Position numbers: made by a program. A DNA stretch of 64,000 nt from Candidatus Latescibacterota bacterium. GTDB taxonomy: Bacteria; Latescibacterota; UBA2968; GCA-2709665. The stretch spans positions 128,001 through 192,000 of the forward strand of contig CBDDDZ010000005.1 of the NCBI GenBank assembly GCA_965226795.1. The letters are read 5' to 3'. Below are positions 27,001-39,000 of the stretch, piece after piece. Positions within the stretch are counted from its first letter, which is position 1; every line of letters begins with the position of its first letter.

Positions 27001-30000
27001 CACATCCTTCTTTAAATGCTTCTACGTGTACGGATTCGTCGAACAGACCTTAGCCATTCATTGCTTTTCCTTCAGCTAACGCCATTTATCGAACTCATCT
27101 TCAACGCCCCAGCTCTTTGAAAACGTCCACAACACCTCATCTTGGTGTTTTGCCTATTTCAAAGTGAGACAATCGGCGTGTTTTTGGAAGCTTCGAGTTT
27201 TTGACGAGTTAGTAAGAACGCGGAAGCGTCATTTTTTTCAAAGTCCCAGTTGCAGGCGCTCGAATTTTTCCTGTGGTCCAACAAAACGAGATTGGCCGCA
27301 CGGTGAAGCCACACATCTCGCCGTCCGGTGCCGTTTCGAGAATCGTGGTTGGGAGCGCCGTCCTGTAGCGGAAGCTATAGATCAGATCGCCAAGATTCTT
27401 AGGCAGATCAATGTTGAGTTCAGAGGCGAACGTGACGATATCCCCCCGTTCAAAATCAACTTGACGTTGTCCCTTCCGAAACCTGGCGTGGAAAATTGCC
27501 TCTATGATGGCTGAGTAGCGATTTGTGGCAGAAATACGTTACTCCTCTCCAGTGTTCAACGGCCGGGCCATTCCAGCATAACAACCTCTTCCCTGAGCTG
27601 TTCACCCGTCACCGTAGAAGGCCTGGTTCGAAACAGGTCGATCCCGGTGACAGTGTAACCCAATGTATCTGCAATACCGGCCAGAAGTTCGCCCGTTCTG
27701 ATCATCACCCGCAGATAGGACGCCTGGTCGCCCACCACATACGCGAGCTTTGCCCCCCGTTTGAGAGCGGGTCGAAGAGACGCCAGATGCTTTGCCATGC
27801 CCCCGAAATAGAGGAGCGTGACGCGGGCGTATTGGCGCTCGAACCCCGATGTTTTGCCGAGGGCGATTCGCCGTTTTTCTATTTCATCCGCGAGGCTGCG
27901 TATTGCAACATTGTCTGCAATTTCCCGGTCATCGGTGTCGGCTTTGTAGACGCCGCGTGTGTTGGACCTGACCAGGTTCTGTTTCAGCATCCTTAGTTCG
28001 TGTCGGTTGCCGATCAAGCCAAGAACGACGGATTCCAGGCGGGTCGTTCTCGTGTAATCCTTCTCGTTGGGATATGGCGGGGAGGTAATTACAAAATCGA
28101 CGGAACCCGGTTTCAGGATGTTTTCGACGTTGCGAGCGTCGGCGTTGATGATTCGGCTGGAGATGCTTGCGCGGCCATCATAACGGTGAATGTCCCGGAC
28201 AGCAGTCCGTATACATTTAAGCCAGGCGTCGACGACCGGAGCATCGTATTTAATTTTCCCGACCCCAACCTCCGGTCCGAATTTCAGGTTGCTGATGTGG
28301 TGTACCAGTGCATTGGCAAAGCAGACGCGGCCGTAATGTTGCAACTGATGATTTCCGTGCCGGTCGATTGCATCCAGCAGCACGAGTGCCTTGTGCAGAG
28401 GACGCGGGCTGATAGAGTCCTTCAAGAGTATTTTCGACCGCTCAGCAGGAAGTTCCTTCAGCGTGGTTGTCGGATTTCCATTTGCTGCGAAAAGAGGAAG
28501 ATCCTTCCATTCATCAAAGCCCTGTTCTTCCAGCGTCTTCTTCGTCGATAGCGCTACCTCTTCCGCGTAGCCGAGCAACTCTTCGTGACTTACACTCCAG
28601 TCGACCTTCACCGAACTTGCGAAATACGCCATGGGGTTCGGCTCGATCCCGACGCTGCCGATGCCGAGCTTTTTGCACTCTACGGGCGTGGTTCCGGTCC
28701 CACAAAATGGGTCGAGGACCGTGTCGGATCGTCTAACGTCGAACCGGTTGAGATACTCGCGGACCAGGTGAGGCGGGAATGACAGGACGAAACGATACCA
28801 GTCATGAACCGCTCTGTCTTCGGGCCGCAGTTTGTTCTGTGCCTTCATTTTATGATGCAATCGATCGGTCTGATTCGCATTTAACATATTATAATTTGTC
28901 AACATAGATAAAGAAAGGATCGAATATTCGTTGTGCAGGCGCAGTCTTCAATCCGTGTTTTGTGGTAATATAGTCAGTATCATTTCGGATTGCAAGGTGC
29001 GGAAGTGCGCCAGGGTCGATCCCAGCGGTAATGGCACCTCGAGGAGAAATACCAGCGGAGACCGGGACTTCCGGTCTACAGCGTGTGGCGCATATCTTCG
29101 GCATCGGCGGCAGTCCGCCTCTGGACACATGACAGAAGGTTGGTGAAAGTAGATTTCCCTTGACTCGAAGCGGTTCTTGAAGTTCCTTCTTTATCCGGCA
29201 AACGAACACCGGTGGTGCAGTTTTGGGTTGGCATTGCGCATTGCGATTTCGCGGAATTGAGTCGTCCCGTTCACTCGGCCTCCCGGGCCGAGGATGCAAG
29301 AGCAAAGTTGGCTGCTCTTCAGAACTCCGGCGTCTGTACTTCGTGGACGAGGAGACGGGCTTTTTGTCAACGACGGGATGTTATGCAGTCCATTTCAGAG
29401 TTTTTGAGCGGCAAGACGCTGTTTGTAACCGGCGCGACGGGGTTTCTGGCGAAGGGATTCGTGGAGAAGATCCTGTTTTCCGCGCCGGAGGTGGCGCGGA
29501 TCTTTCTCCTGATCCGGCCGCGTTCACGATCCAGCGGCCAACGGGTTTCCGAAGCGGAGCGGCTGGAGTCGGAGGTTCTTCAGTCGCGCGCGTTTGCAAG
29601 GCTGAGGCAGAGATGGGGCGCGGCATTTCCGTCGGTGATGGCGGATAAGGTCGCCGCGGTGCCCGGCGATCTGACCGAAGATGGACTGGGGATAGCGTCC
29701 GATCAGCATGAGCGTCTGGTTCACGAAGTGGATTTCGTGGTGAACTTCGCCGGAACCGTGGTTTTCGATGAGCCCATCGACAGTGCGCTCGAACAGAATA
29801 CGATGGGCGCCGCGAGGGTCATGGCCTTCGCGAAGGCCTGCCGGAAAGCCGCGCTGGTTCACGTGTCGACCGCGTACGTCAGCGGGCAACGGACCGGCCG
29901 GATCCCGGAGGCACCGTTTCCCCAGGATCGGAGCGCTTCGGATCTCATCAACGGAAGCCAGGCCGGGTTCGAACTGCAGGGCGAGATCGATGCGATTCGG

Positions 30001-36000: not shown

Positions 36001-39000
36001 GGTGTCGTGCATTGCGTGTATTACGCGCTGCCCCACCTGAAAGCCCGCGACGGGATGGTTGTGGCGATTTCATCTATCCAGGGCAAGATCGGTGTGCCCA
36101 TGCACACCGGATACGTGGCGTCCAAGCACGCCGTCCAGGGATTCTTCGAGTCGTTGCGAACGGAGTTGCTCGACACCGGCGTGGACGTGCTGACGGTGTT
36201 GCCCCACTGGCTGCGCGGGACTAACTTACGCAAGGCGGCCTTCGGGAAGGATGGCGGCTCCCTGGGCGGGTCAAGCCGAAAGCACAGCAAGGAGTCGATA
36301 TCGCTGGACGACGCATGCACGGCCATCATCGAAGCCATGAGAAAGAGGAAGCGGGAACTGATTATTCCGTTCAAGCTCAGATTTCTGCCCTGGCTGCATC
36401 TGATCAATCCGAAGATTGTCGAATACCTGGTAACGCGTGGCGTGGCGAAGCAGGATAAGGGTTGATGGCGGTTCGGGCCGGCGCGGGTTACGGGCGGAAG
36501 CACGGGACGGGGTTCAGGAAAATAGCCCGTCCACGTCCAGGTGCCGTTCAACCAGTTCGGGCATGTGTCCGATACTTCCTGCATCCACGTTCACGCCTGA
36601 ATCATACGGCAGGATGCCCAGGGAGCGGACCCCGGTGAGGCGGGCGATTACGTCCGGGCTGGTGCGGGCGGCCCTCGGGTCGCCGGGTCCGGTCGTGTTG
36701 TACACGACACCCTTGATTTCCAGGTTTCGCCTTGTTGCGGCCTCGAGCGTCAGCATTGTGTGATTGATCGTGCCCAGTGCGGCACGGGCGACCACCATCA
36801 GTGGCAGGTTCAGACGGGCGGCGAGGTCCGAGACCAGGAAGTCGTCCCGGATCGGAACCAGCAGGCCGCCCACGCCCTCCACGAGTACGATATCGTGAAG
36901 GCTTGCCAGGCGGCTATAGGAATCCAGGATGGGTTCCAGTGGGACCTGGCGGCCTTCCAGTTCAGCGGCCACGTTGGGCGAGAGCGGCGCGGCAAGGCGG
37001 ACGGGATTGACAAGTTCGAGAGCATCGGTAACTCCCGCGGCTTTTGCCAGGAATCGCGCGTCGGCCGTGCCGCCCGCAGAAACGGGTTTGAATACACCGA
37101 CGTCAACGCCGCGTTTGAGTAAAACGGCCGCGAGGCCGGCGGTCACGGCGGTTTTGCCCGCGCCGGTGTCGGTGGCGGTAACGAAGACTCCCCTGGGGCG
37201 CATGTTCAAGTCGTCGCGGAATCGGGGCCGAATTCACACATGAGTGTCGCGATTCTCCAGTCAGGCCGCCGTCAGGCGGCTTTTCATCAGGCGTTTCCAC
37301 GCGGGCGCCCGGCTGTGCCGACAGCGGCGCGGGCCGGGGTCAGGCCGGGCACGTGACGGCGCGGATGGATTCGTAGACGATATTCAGCAACGCTTCGAGA
37401 TCGCGGTCGGAAATGGCCAGGGGCGGCATGAGGACGATGGTGTCGCCCAGCGGGCGGATGAGAAGACCCCGTTTTCGGGCCTCGCGGCAGACGCGGACGC
37501 CGATCCTGTCCGTGGCGGGATACGGTTTGCCGCAGGATCTGTCGGCAACCAGTTCGATGCCGGCGATGAAGCCGCACTGGCGCACGTCGCCCGTGTGGGC
37601 GAGTTTCCCGAACCGGTCGAGTCCGCGCTCGAGGAGTGCGATTCTGGTGCGCAGAGACGCCAGTACCCTGTGGCTTTCGAAGCGCTCGATGGCGGCCAGT
37701 GCCGCCGCGCAGCCGAGCGGGTTTCCTGTATACGTGTGGCCGTGGAAAAACGTCCGGCCTTCGCTGTCTTCGCCCAGAAAGGCATCAAAGATCTCACTGG
37801 TTGTCAGGGTGGCGGCCACGGGCAGGTATCCGCCCGTGATGCCCTTGCCCAGGCAGAGTATGTCCGGCGCGACGTCTTCTATCTCGCAGGCGAACATGGC
37901 GCCCGTGCGGCCGAAGCCGGTGGCGATTTCATCGGCAATGAGTAGGACGTCGTGCGCCCTGCAGAGGTCGGCGATCCCCTTGAGATAGCCATCCGGATGA
38001 ACCAGCATCCCGCCCGCGCCCTGGATGAGCGGTTCGACAATGAAGGCGGCGATGCGGTGGGCATCCCGTTTCAGGATATCTTCGACCGCCCGCAAACAAT
38101 CCTGGTTGCACGCGTTTTCGCGGGCGCAGAACGTACAGCGATACGGGTGCGGCGCCGGCGCGTTAAGCGAGGGGAAGAGGAGCGGCCCGTAGGTTTTGTG
38201 AAAGAGATCGATGTTGCCGACGCTCATGGCGCCGATGGTGTCGCCGTGGTAGCTCTGCGAGAGGCTGAGAAAGGTCGTTTTCCCGGGTTTCGGACCCGGT
38301 CGCTGTCGCCAGTATTGGAAGGCGATTTTAAGGGCGATTTCGACGGCGCAGGCGCCGGTGTCGGAGTAGAACACATGGTTCAGACCCGGGGGCGTGATTT
38401 CCACGAGTTTTTCAGCCAGACGGATTGCGGGTACGTTGGACAGACCCAGTAGCGTGCTGTGTGCGACCTGGTCCAGTTGTCCGCGTATGGCGTCGTCGAT
38501 GTCCCCCACGCGGTGACCGTGCACGTTGCACCACATGGAGGAGTAGCCGTCGAGGTACCGGTTACCGTCGATGTCCTCCAGGTAGACGCCGTCCGCGCGC
38601 GCGATGACAATGGGGTCCTCGCGCGCGTATGTGCGCATCTGGGTGAACGGGTGCCACACCAGGCGACGGTCCAGGTCTTTGAGGCGGGCCTTGTCGTCCG
38701 GGGACATATTCACTGTGAACCGGGCATGGGAGACAGGTGACAGAGATTTAACGCGGATACTCCTGGTGTTCTGTCCCGGAAATAGACCGCCTCAATTCGG
38801 CCGACGAGCGAAGGCACTTCGACAGGCTCAGTGTAAACAACGCAAAGAGACGGGATGAATCGTTGGAAGAATGGTGACATATTTCCGGGTCGGGACACTA
38901 CGGTCGTCCGGGACTGCCGGCGTCGGTTTACCACCACGCCCATCTCGATGGCGGCAGGCGCCGCGGACCTGCACCGATGGGTCCCGTGGCACGGCGCCGG

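What a model noticed while it worked through the whole genome (the two positions that open the first line are those of the whole stretch)
29383..36465. Peroxisome-type ether-lipid operon (FAR, novel DHAP acyltransferase, AGPS, SDR) replaces PlsX/PlsY/PlsB and GpsA in a wh [...]
This genome, like nearly all of class UBA2968, lacks the known bacterial entries into phospholipid synthesis (GpsA, PlsX, PlsY, PlsB). It carries instead an operon of fatty acyl reductase (g02018), a 646-aa Pfam-invisible PlsC/GPAT-fold acyltransferase (g02019), an AGPS 42% identical to the human enzyme (g02020) and an SDR (g02021): the four steps of the peroxisomal route DHAP > acyl-DHAP > alkyl-DHAP > alkyl-G3P. Inference: sn-1 alkyl ether lipids made through DHAP are the class's bulk membrane route.
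Evidence so far: Searches of 168 phylum genomes (132 in the class, 36 outside): PlsY 0/132 vs 29/36; GpsA 0/132 vs 29/36 (152); PlsX 1/132 vs 33/36 (156); PlsB 0/168 (162). g02019 is in 130/132 vs 2/36 (160); one of those two, G003, also lacks PlsX, PlsY and GpsA. AGPS orthologue 123/132 vs 1/36 (161). FAR lies directly upstream of g02019 in 30/30 loci and AGPS directly downstream in 25/30, two of the misses at contig ends (166). The SDR follows AGPS in 4/5 genomes from three families (161, 197). The AlphaFold model of g02019 (pLDDT 91, call 176) matches T. maritima PlsC (E 2e-4, TM 0.63-0.67 by target), plant GPAT and human GPAT1 (181). Its HxxxxD/E motif has His in 60/60 and D/E in 60/60 sequences (205). 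P [...]
(Added by a program. Inside this text positions count along the whole contig: contig position 128,001 is position 1 of the stretch shown here. "Call 12" and the like, gene names such as g00115 and contig names such as C1 are that model's own, and its searches are not shown. The text may have been shortened before it was handed on; [...] marks where a part breaks off. The agent that wrote the report below was given it as the finding of a first reader that could run no searches.)

Follow-up and report, generated by a model that had tools for sequence, protein, structure and literature searches.

The report
Ether-lipid entry route replacing PlsX/PlsY
A sponge-associated bacterium and nearly all of its class lack the usual bacterial enzymes that start membrane-lipid synthesis and carry instead the animal-style genes for ether lipids plus an unnamed acyltransferase, so these bacteria probably build their membranes by a route that has not been shown to serve this role in bacteria.

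Summary
The four genes are real: FAR, a 646-aa acyltransferase with a PlsC fold (Z 15.2) and HxxxxD/E motif (111/111), AGPS and an SDR. The absences reproduce: PlsY 0/132 class genomes vs 29/36 outside, GpsA 0/132 vs 29/36, PlsX 1/132 vs 33/36; the acyltransferase is in 130/132. plsX is missing from its rpmF-fabH slot in 24/24 loci, beside this operon. Correction: 'operon' does not hold class-wide; FAR flanks the acyltransferase in only 40/80 loci, and family f4 (76 genomes) scatters the genes, mostly with an ElbD-like FAR. Best reading: the acyltransferase is the sn-1 entry enzyme, acting on DHAP, and alkyl ethers are the main glycerophospholipids (0.55). Against: no lipid data; GGGPS/DGGGPS-like genes are phylum-wide; PgpA is kept, so an unknown glycerol-phosphate source exists. 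FAR/AGPS in this class are in print; the acyltransferase and the losses were not found in my searches. The scan noted this operon before in other genomes.

The parts
29383..31017 (+). Fatty acyl reductase (FAR), 544 aa; makes the fatty alcohol
   Evidence: PF07993 210.6 bits and PF03015 59.9 bits; TGATGF at 16 and YTLTK at 276; 128/132 class genomes, 3/36 outside
31144..33084 (+). Unnamed acyltransferase, 646 aa: helical N-terminal domain (about 1-340, function unknown) and PlsC/GPAT-fold catalytic domain (356-642); proposed acyl-CoA/ACP:DHAP acyltransferase
   Evidence: No family or PDB sequence hit; model pLDDT 91.5; T. maritima PlsC Z 15.2, rmsd 3.0, 223 aligned; human GPAT1 Z 9.3; squash GPAT Z 9.1; H445 111/111, D/E450 111/111; 130/132 vs 2/36
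33175..35034 (+). Alkyl-DHAP synthase (AGPS), 619 aa, with an N-terminal hydrophobic segment
   Evidence: Guinea-pig AGPS 493 bits, E 1e-146; next family at E 1e-25; positions matching His300, Arg419, Tyr578 and His615-617 are kept (the roles of these residues are recalled); hydropathy 3.0 from residue 6; 123/132 vs 1/36
35647..36465 (+). Classical SDR, 272 aa; proposed alkyl/acyl-DHAP reductase
   Evidence: NF004825 over cut-off; TGASSGLG and YVASK; orthologue 119/132 vs 0/36, absent from every LarA-type genome and next to AGPS even where FAR and the acyltransferase have moved
9259..9308 (-). rpmF-fabH junction where plsX sits in relatives outside the class
   Evidence: fabH 8257-9258 and rpmF 9309-9491 in the window; no plsX between them in 24/24 class loci holding both genes (gap 23-218 bp), against 1289 bp with plsX in G010
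4738..11692 (-). ndk-yceD-rpmF-fabH-fabD-fabG-fabF fatty acid synthesis cluster, divergent from FAR; directly head to head with it in relatives, separated here by a low-GC insert
   Evidence: gene names from tblastn to neighbours and from recalled sequence features
29203..35069 (+). Stretch covered by single metatranscriptome contigs (FAR, acyltransferase, AGPS)
   Evidence: X1 29204-35069 depth 28; X5 29269-35023 depth 41; X2 29203-34688 in two pieces; bins upstream of 29170 have depth 8 or less. Contigs do not prove one transcript or its strand

Best explanation
The 646-aa protein is the class's sn-1 entry acyltransferase and has replaced PlsX/PlsY. It acylates DHAP. FAR makes a fatty alcohol, AGPS exchanges the acyl group of acyl-DHAP for it, and the SDR reduces alkyl-DHAP to 1-alkyl-glycerol phosphate. 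The canonical PlsC (or, in family f4, the acyltransferase domain of an ElbD-like FAR fusion) acylates sn-2, and standard head-group enzymes finish the lipid. 1-alkyl-2-acyl glycerophospholipids are then the main fatty-chain membrane lipids. Shown: the genes, folds, motifs, distributions, gene order and RNA cover. From established knowledge: the FAR and AGPS reactions. Inferred: DHAP as acceptor (about 0.75), entry role of the acyltransferase (about 0.85), the SDR's reaction (about 0.7), and that ethers are the majority (about 0.55). A minority of genomes use a HAD/Zn-dehydrogenase/LarA-like/lipid-kinase cassette in place of AGPS-SDR.
For: Complementary distribution with PlsX/PlsY/GpsA. Outside the class, G008 (99% complete, 2 contigs) has the acyltransferase and lacks all three; G031 (96%) lacks all three and has an ElbD-like FAR-ACS-ACP-acyltransferase operon. 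plsX is missing from the neighbouring fab operon in 24/24 loci. PlsC fold and motif. AGPS needs acyl-DHAP, and 14/14 other genomes of this genus and 21/21 of genus g11 have exactly one PF01553 protein, of PlsC size. 63/132 class genomes lack GlpK; GlpD C-terminal domain 0/5; no G1P dehydrogenase among 5 Fe-ADH hits in G000. SDR and AGPS co-occur and stay adjacent. AGPS and the LarA-like cassette exclude each other: 124 and 8 genomes, overlap 0; AGPS in 0/79 metagenome LarA-like loci. RNA contigs in 3 runs of 2 studies cover FAR to AGPS. Sponges hold C14-C18 monoalkyl glycerol ethers (bioRxiv 10.64898/2026.06.23.733905).
Against: No lipid data and no assay. The genes are unlinked in family f4. 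The fold does not tell DHAP from G3P, and the best match is PlsC, an sn-2 enzyme. PgpA is kept in 5/5 GlpK-less genomes, and G000 has PgsA and GGGPS, so glycerol phosphate is still needed and an unknown source weakens the 'no G3P' argument. G000 itself has GlpK and a second PlsC-like gene. GGGPS 128/132 and DGGGPS-like 124/132 offer another ether route. plsY and gpsA are neighbours outside the class, so their loss may be one event, and the class is one lineage. G034 and two Eisenbacteria carry the acyltransferase together with PlsY-family genes. In M. xanthus, loss of AGPS reduced ether lipids only slightly (PMC9131029). Most LarA-like genes in metagenomes have no lipid neighbours (FAR in 5/28 loci with 7 kb or more upstream). 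The SDR's link to DHRS7B could not be tested.
Confidence: 0.55

Rival explanations
1. Same DHAP entry, but mostly ester membranes: the acyltransferase makes acyl-DHAP, the SDR reduces most of it directly to ester lyso-PA, and AGPS diverts only a part into ethers.
For: Eukaryotic acyl/alkyl-DHAP reductases take both substrates (recalled). The canonical PlsC is kept. M. xanthus AGPS makes only a minor share of its ether lipids (PMC9131029).
Against: The SDR follows AGPS, not the acyltransferase: it is absent from all AGPS-less genomes that keep the acyltransferase. FAR is kept in 128/132. Every near-complete genome has one of the two modules.
Confidence: 0.22
2. The acyltransferase is a G3P acyltransferase (or takes both acceptors), fed by GlpK or by an unrecognised DHAP reductase; ether lipids are a side branch.
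For: Fold matches include GPATs. PgsA/PgpA and GGGPS need glycerol phosphate. GlpK is in 69/132 class genomes, including G000.
Against: 63/132 lack both GpsA and GlpK, several in single-contig genomes. AGPS needs acyl-DHAP and no GNPAT-like gene is listed for this phylum in a GTDB-wide survey (0 of 1,045 rows). A G3P route would not predict the loss of GpsA.
Confidence: 0.1
3. Archaeal-type isoprenoid ether lipids made by GGGPS and the DGGGPS-like prenyltransferase form the bulk membrane, which made PlsX/PlsY dispensable; the FAR cluster makes a minor lipid.
For: GGGPS over cut-off in 128/132 (TIGR01769 189.8 bits against 161.55 in G000); DGGGPS-like 124/132. FCB-group enzymes made such lipids in E. 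coli (PMC7852524, passages).
Against: Both genes are phylum background: GGGPS in 5/5 outside genomes tested, four of which keep PlsX/PlsY; DGGGPS-like in 32/36. The full fab cluster and PlsC are kept. The DGGGPS-like protein is under the curated cut-offs. No G1PDH found in G000.
Confidence: 0.08
4. FAR and the acyltransferase make wax esters or another storage lipid; membrane lipid entry uses an unrelated, unseen enzyme.
For: FAR and the acyltransferase are the tightest pair where the cluster is intact (40/80 loci), also in AGPS-less loci.
Against: The motif is HxxxxD/E of glycerolipid acyltransferases, not the HPHG of DGAT2-type wax synthases (recalled). AGPS follows directly in 35/80 loci. 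A storage gene would not be expected in 130/132 genomes, nor to mirror the loss of PlsX/PlsY.
Confidence: 0.05

Closest known systems
Peroxisomal ether-lipid route of animals and protists (FAR1, GNPAT, AGPS, acyl/alkyl-DHAP reductase)
   Same: FAR and a true AGPS with its active-site positions kept; an acyltransferase of the same fold superfamily; a reductase tied to AGPS.
   Different: The acyltransferase is not a GNPAT by sequence (no hit; absent from the GNPAT table of PMC13012113) and has its own helical N-terminal domain. No Latescibacterota row in the PEDS1 table, so alkyl rather than plasmalogen lipids. Eukaryotes keep the G3P route; this class has lost it.
Myxococcus xanthus MXAN_1676-1674 operon (AGPS, FAR-GNPAT fusion, NAD-dependent epimerase family)
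   Same: Bacterial operon with AGPS, FAR, acyltransferase and an NAD(P) enzyme (PMC9131029; PMC13012113).
   Different: There the acyltransferase is GNPAT-like and fused to FAR, and the route is minor. Here it is a separate, unrecognised family, and PlsX/PlsY/GpsA are gone.
Myxococcus xanthus elbABCDE (ElbD = FAR-ACS-ACP-acyltransferase, ElbB = HAD, ElbC unknown)
   Same: 54 of 72 FAR hits in family f4 lie in open frames over 1000 aa; two were shown to be FAR-ACS-(ACP)-acyltransferase fusions. G031 has ElbD-like, HAD, Zn-dehydrogenase, LarA-like and kinase genes in a row.
   Different: The window's own FAR is a stand-alone 544-aa protein and G000 lacks the HAD/LarA-like cassette. That ElbC is LarA-like comes from earlier scan notes; I could not check the ElbC sequence.
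PlsC/GPAT/tafazzin acyltransferase superfamily (T. maritima PlsC 5kym)
   Same: Fold of residues 356-642 (Z 15.2) and HxxxxD/E.
   Different: 10% identity; the FPEGTRS-type motif (recalled) reads YxxGTT; 340 extra N-terminal residues without a clear fold match; invisible to PF01553.

Membership tests
AGPS (alkyl-DHAP synthase) | Full-length similarity to eukaryotic AGPS well above other VAO-family flavoproteins | tested here: met
   493 bits to 4bby, 292 to Dictyostelium 2uuu, 93 or less to all others
AGPS (alkyl-DHAP synthase) | His300, Arg419, Tyr578, His615-617 equivalents | tested here: met
   Read from the alignment; HHH at 571; residue roles recalled
AGPS (alkyl-DHAP synthase) | Acyl-to-alkyl exchange on acyl-DHAP | not testable with these tools
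   Needs an assay
Fatty acyl-CoA reductase (FAR1/male sterility type) | PF07993 plus PF03015, GxxGxxG and YxxxK | tested here: met
PlsC/GPAT superfamily | Acyltransferase fold | tested here: met
   Z 15.2, rmsd 3.0, 223 residues to 5kym; Foldseek E 4e-4
PlsC/GPAT superfamily | Catalytic HxxxxD | tested here: met
   H 111/111; D 94 and E 17 of 111; this copy has E
GNPAT/PlsB family | Sequence similarity to GNPAT, GPAT1 or PlsB | tested here: not met
   No Pfam, NCBIfam or PDB sequence hit, also with a 111-sequence profile; TIGR03703 0 in G000. This lowers 'is a GNPAT', not 'works like one'
GNPAT/PlsB family | DHAP as acyl acceptor | not testable with these tools
   Inferred from context only
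Acyl/alkyl-DHAP reductase (DHRS7B/Ayr1 type) | Classical SDR motifs | tested here: met
Acyl/alkyl-DHAP reductase (DHRS7B/Ayr1 type) | Orthology to DHRS7B or Ayr1 | tested here: inconclusive
   The Atlas search gave only generic bacterial SDR clusters; no eukaryotic reference sequence was on hand
elb cluster of Myxococcus | ElbD fusion with HAD neighbour | tested here: not met
   Not in G000; met in G031; ElbD-like fusion without the HAD neighbour in much of family f4
NPN-dependent LarA superfamily (alternative cassette, other genomes) | Lar_N domain and nickel-pincer synthesis genes | tested here: inconclusive
   PF09861 met; NF052592 514 bits under the cut-off of 740; LarC in 5/5 cassette genomes but also in 5/5 AGPS genomes

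The most novel reading that the evidence does not exclude
A whole bacterial class has given up acylation of glycerol-3-phosphate and builds essentially all fatty-chain membrane lipids as sn-1 alkyl ethers through DHAP, with a new acyltransferase family as the obligate first step and two interchangeable ether-forming modules: the flavin enzyme AGPS with an SDR, or a nickel-pincer LarA-like enzyme with a Zn-dehydrogenase, HAD phosphatase and lipid kinase. The LarA-like protein would then be a second, unrelated ether-bond synthase, and the strict exchange of the two modules, twice within a genus, is natural genetic evidence for it.
Probability: 0.3. Interest if true: 0.9.

Novelty: new variant of a known kind. 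Interest (0 to 1): 0.74.

Why it matters
PlsX/PlsY or PlsB on G3P is the accepted start of bacterial phospholipid synthesis (PMC13400652, passages). A class that lacks them and keeps an acyl-DHAP route gives a third entry and a new enzyme family to assay. It names a likely producer of the alkyl glycerol ethers found in sponges and sediments. It fills a gap that a GTDB-wide survey left: FAR and AGPS of this class were listed, the gene between them was not. The exclusion between AGPS-SDR and the LarA-like cassette points to a concrete candidate for the unknown ether-forming step of AGPS-free (elb-type) pathways, and it can be tested in E. coli or M. xanthus.

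Tried and rejected
Sequence routes to a known family for the acyltransferase failed: Pfam, NCBIfam, PDB by single sequence and by profile, BLAST to the genome's own PlsC (best E 0.61), and a profile search of 1.84 billion representatives (68 hits, longest 665 aa, no bridge and no fusion). 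The N-terminal domain folded alone (pLDDT 86.2) matched only generic helical bundles (best Z 9.2 to a designed barrel; no Foldseek hit at E 0.001); this does not show a new fold. 'Second PlsC as GPAT' was rejected as a class-wide solution, though G000 has a second copy. LarC was tried as a marker of the LarA-like cassette and does not discriminate. The Atlas did not place the SDR. Promoter and terminator scans gave chance-level counts (3 against 2.5 +/- 2.1; 13 against 8.0 +/- 3.0). RNA contigs break between AGPS and the SDR: no evidence for or against co-transcription. ElbC homology of the LarA-like protein could not be checked directly; the Atlas shows a Lar_N cluster rich in Myxococcota at TM 0.76. 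The single class PlsX (G145) lies on a 154-kb side contig whose yceD is only 28% identical to the window's (class copies 40-62%), so it may be contamination; not proven. The careful tree did not finish; the quick tree was used. No complex prediction was run. Literature searches for the replacement: 0 papers with 4 of 6 terms; 11 papers; none on this by title and abstract.

Full report
1. Observation. Four + strand ORFs lie at 29383-31017, 31144-33084, 33175-35034 and 35647-36465, with gaps of 126, 90 and 612 bp. The first is a FAR (PF07993 210.6 bits, PF03015 59.9). The third is an AGPS: 493 bits to the guinea-pig enzyme, against 93 or less for other flavoproteins, with the positions of His300, Arg419, Tyr578 and His615-617 kept (residue roles recalled). 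The fourth is a classical SDR (NF004825). The second has no Pfam, NCBIfam or PDB sequence hit. Its model (pLDDT 91.5) matches T. maritima PlsC over residues 356-642 (Z 15.2, rmsd 3.0, 223 aligned), then human GPAT1 (9.3) and squash GPAT (9.1) (Foldseek E 4e-4). H445 is in 111/111 aligned sequences and D/E450 in 111/111. Two JGI copies are named 1-acyl-sn-glycerol-3-phosphate acyltransferase. Metatranscriptome contigs cover FAR to AGPS in 3 of 4 runs laid, from two studies, beginning near 29203-29269, at depth 24-41 against 8 or less upstream; they break before the SDR. Contigs do not prove one transcript.

2. The absences. In 168 phylum genomes (132 in the class): acyltransferase 130/132 vs 2/36, PlsY 0/132 vs 29/36, PlsX over cut-off 1/132 vs 33/36, GpsA 0/132 vs 29/36, AGPS 123/132 vs 1/36, FAR 128/132 vs 3/36, SDR orthologue 119/132 vs 0/36. 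PlsB was tested in 5 genomes only (0/5). Many class genomes are single contigs, so incompleteness does not explain this. Kin are not independent, and plsY and gpsA are neighbours outside the class, so the losses may be two events in one ancestor. A positional trace supports them: rpmF and fabH are 23-218 bp apart with no plsX in 24/24 class loci that hold both genes (26 class loci were given to the script, chosen among those near the fab genes), while G010 outside the class has plsX there. In those loci the fab cluster is head to head with FAR. In the window the same cluster lies at 4738-11692, parted from FAR by a low-GC insert.

3. Correction to 'operon'. In 80 loci from genome contigs, FAR is present in 40 and AGPS in 35. 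In family f4 (76 genomes) the acyltransferase stands alone, AGPS-SDR stay together elsewhere, and 54 of 72 FAR hits lie in open frames over 1000 aa. One f4 fusion and the G031 fusion were scanned: FAR, acyl-CoA synthetase and PlsC-type domains, with an ACP in G031, as in M. xanthus ElbD. The gene set is class-wide; the operon is not.

4. Nine class genomes lack AGPS. Six of them, plus G008 and G031 outside the class, carry a 515-541 aa LarA-like protein (PF09861; nearest NF052592, under cut-off) in a cassette with a HAD-IB phosphatase, a Zn-dehydrogenase and usually a YegS-type lipid kinase. No genome has both (124 AGPS, 8 LarA-like, overlap 0). The three class genomes with neither are fragmented (75-91% complete, 430-770 contigs). 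In G037, G039 and G008 the cassette follows FAR and the acyltransferase, where AGPS-SDR otherwise sit; two Eisenbacteria loci have the same order and no AGPS, but keep a divergent PlsY-family gene. G031 lacks PlsX, PlsY, GpsA and the acyltransferase, and has ElbD-like, HAD, dehydrogenase, LarA-like and kinase genes in a row. Two genera hold both types (G038 against G039; G151 against four others), and a quick tree of 25 acyltransferases puts G038 inside the LarA-type clade (support 100) and genus g28 inside f4. In 79 metagenome loci of the LarA-like protein the dehydrogenase is in 22, HAD in 13, FAR in 5, the acyltransferase in 5, AGPS in 0; most copies have no conserved neighbour, which limits the claim. 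Earlier scan notes call such proteins ElbC homologues; I could not check this. Papers on LarA homologues give LarAH15 a sugar-acid epimerase activity, with no mention of lipid (PMC11770544, passages), and say that groups 14 and 15 lack one catalytic His (PMC12611868, passages).

5. Mechanism. AGPS needs acyl-DHAP. In 14/14 other genomes of this genus and 21/21 of genus g11 there is exactly one PF01553 protein; in G000 the main one is the PlsC of the cmk-plsC-rpsA operon. So the only candidate for both acyl-DHAP and the sn-1 entry is the unnamed acyltransferase. GlpK is in 69/132, the GlpD C-terminal domain in 0/5, and none of 5 Fe-ADH hits in G000 is a G1P dehydrogenase. The likely order is DHAP, acyl-DHAP, alkyl-DHAP, alkyl-glycerol phosphate, sn-2 acylation, head groups. 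The substrate of the acyltransferase and of the SDR, and the share of ethers, are inferred.

6. Evidence against. PgpA is in 5/5 GlpK-less genomes tested and G000 has PgsA and a GGGPS over cut-off: glycerol phosphate is still used, from an unknown source. GGGPS (128/132) and a DGGGPS-like protein (124/132) could give isoprenoid ethers, but they are also in genomes that keep PlsX/PlsY, so they do not explain the loss. G034 has both systems. The SDR may pass acyl-DHAP straight to ester lipids. Loss of PlsY alone is not unique: it was not found in the Bacteroides and Corynebacterium controls either, but both keep GpsA.

7. What is in print. PMC13012113 (main text parts 1-4 of 7 read; 12 of 15 supplementary files searched; files 13-15 and the appendix PDF not seen) lists Latescibacterota FAR (39 occurrences) and AGPS (32), with genes _110 and _108 of one contig, and none in the GNPAT table of 1,045 rows. 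bioRxiv 10.64898/2026.06.23.733905 (parts 1-3 of 6 and term search; supplements closed) reports ElbD and AGPS homologues in sponge Latescibacterota and alkyl ethers in sponges, with no mention of PlsX, PlsY or racemase. PMC9131029 (passages) describes both M. xanthus operons. PMC7852524, PMC13400652 and PMC6431249 were seen as passages; PMC13596139 as abstract only and not used. Searches showed no paper on the acyltransferase family, the class-wide loss or the exchange of modules; the library lacks most subscription papers. The scan itself noted this operon in other genomes; these notes are not independent support.

8. Verdict. A real feature and a new variant of a known route: known chemistry, a new acyltransferase family, and a new role as the replacement of PlsX/PlsY. 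Confidence 0.55 that ethers made through DHAP are the main membrane lipids, about 0.85 that the acyltransferase is the entry enzyme. Interest 0.74.

Noticed in passing
L130:3531-13717, L131:3698-13325, L133:8060-18669, L156:3507-12415, L157-L161, L087, L098: AGPS-free locus type: (acyl-CoA ligase)-FAR-acyltransferase-HAD-Zn dehydrogenase-LarA-like-(lipid kinase), or the last four alone, or behind an ElbD-like fusion. Mutually exclusive with AGPS in 168 genomes.
   Followed up: yes
G040, G060, G144, G132, G037; G000:C5:1947907-1954996: PgpA is kept in genomes without GpsA and GlpK; in G000 pgsA, pgpA, recA, alaS and GGGPS lie in one cluster. The source of glycerol phosphate is unexplained.
   Followed up: partly
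G000:C3:262948-264438: G000 has GlpK but no GlpD C-terminal domain, so the kinase may feed lipid head groups rather than catabolism.
   Followed up: partly
window 31144-32163: The N-terminal helical domain of the acyltransferase has an invariant patch (H281, E283, Y299, Y301-D305, D308) with no known fold match; it may be a second active or binding site.
   Followed up: partly
L164, L166, L168: In family f4 the ElbD-like FAR sits upstream of an lgt-like gene and divergent from a lipid kinase and MlaD/MlaE-like transporter genes (names recalled from sequence features, not searched).
   Followed up: no
L132:7902-10483, L134:7225-9063: G038 and G151 carry a divergent AGPS (47-48% identity) inside genera whose other members have the LarA-like cassette; G038 has a different SDR behind it and keeps the HAD gene. 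Likely recent swaps.
   Followed up: partly
window 20127-28905: Low-GC insert (0.46-0.50 in 20001-28000) between ndk and FAR with two methyltransferase-like ORFs, a histidine-kinase-like ATPase and a response-regulator-like ORF; looks like a defence island (from motifs, not searched).
   Followed up: no
window 36514-38713: bioD- and bioA-like genes converge on the SDR; bioD is in 14 of 80 loci, so they are not part of the unit.
   Followed up: partly
G000:C5:359864-360739 and C5:1947907-1948653: GGGPS and a DGGGPS-like prenyltransferase are unlinked here but kept across the phylum; the latter could also prenylate an alkyl-lyso lipid to give hybrid ethers (speculation).
   Followed up: partly
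G091: In this single-contig genome of family f2, FAR-acyltransferase, AGPS and the SDR lie at three separate places, an independent break-up of the operon.
   Followed up: no
window 42465-46207: A glucose-6-phosphate-isomerase-like ORF and a malate synthase G-like ORF (names recalled from sequence features).
   Followed up: no
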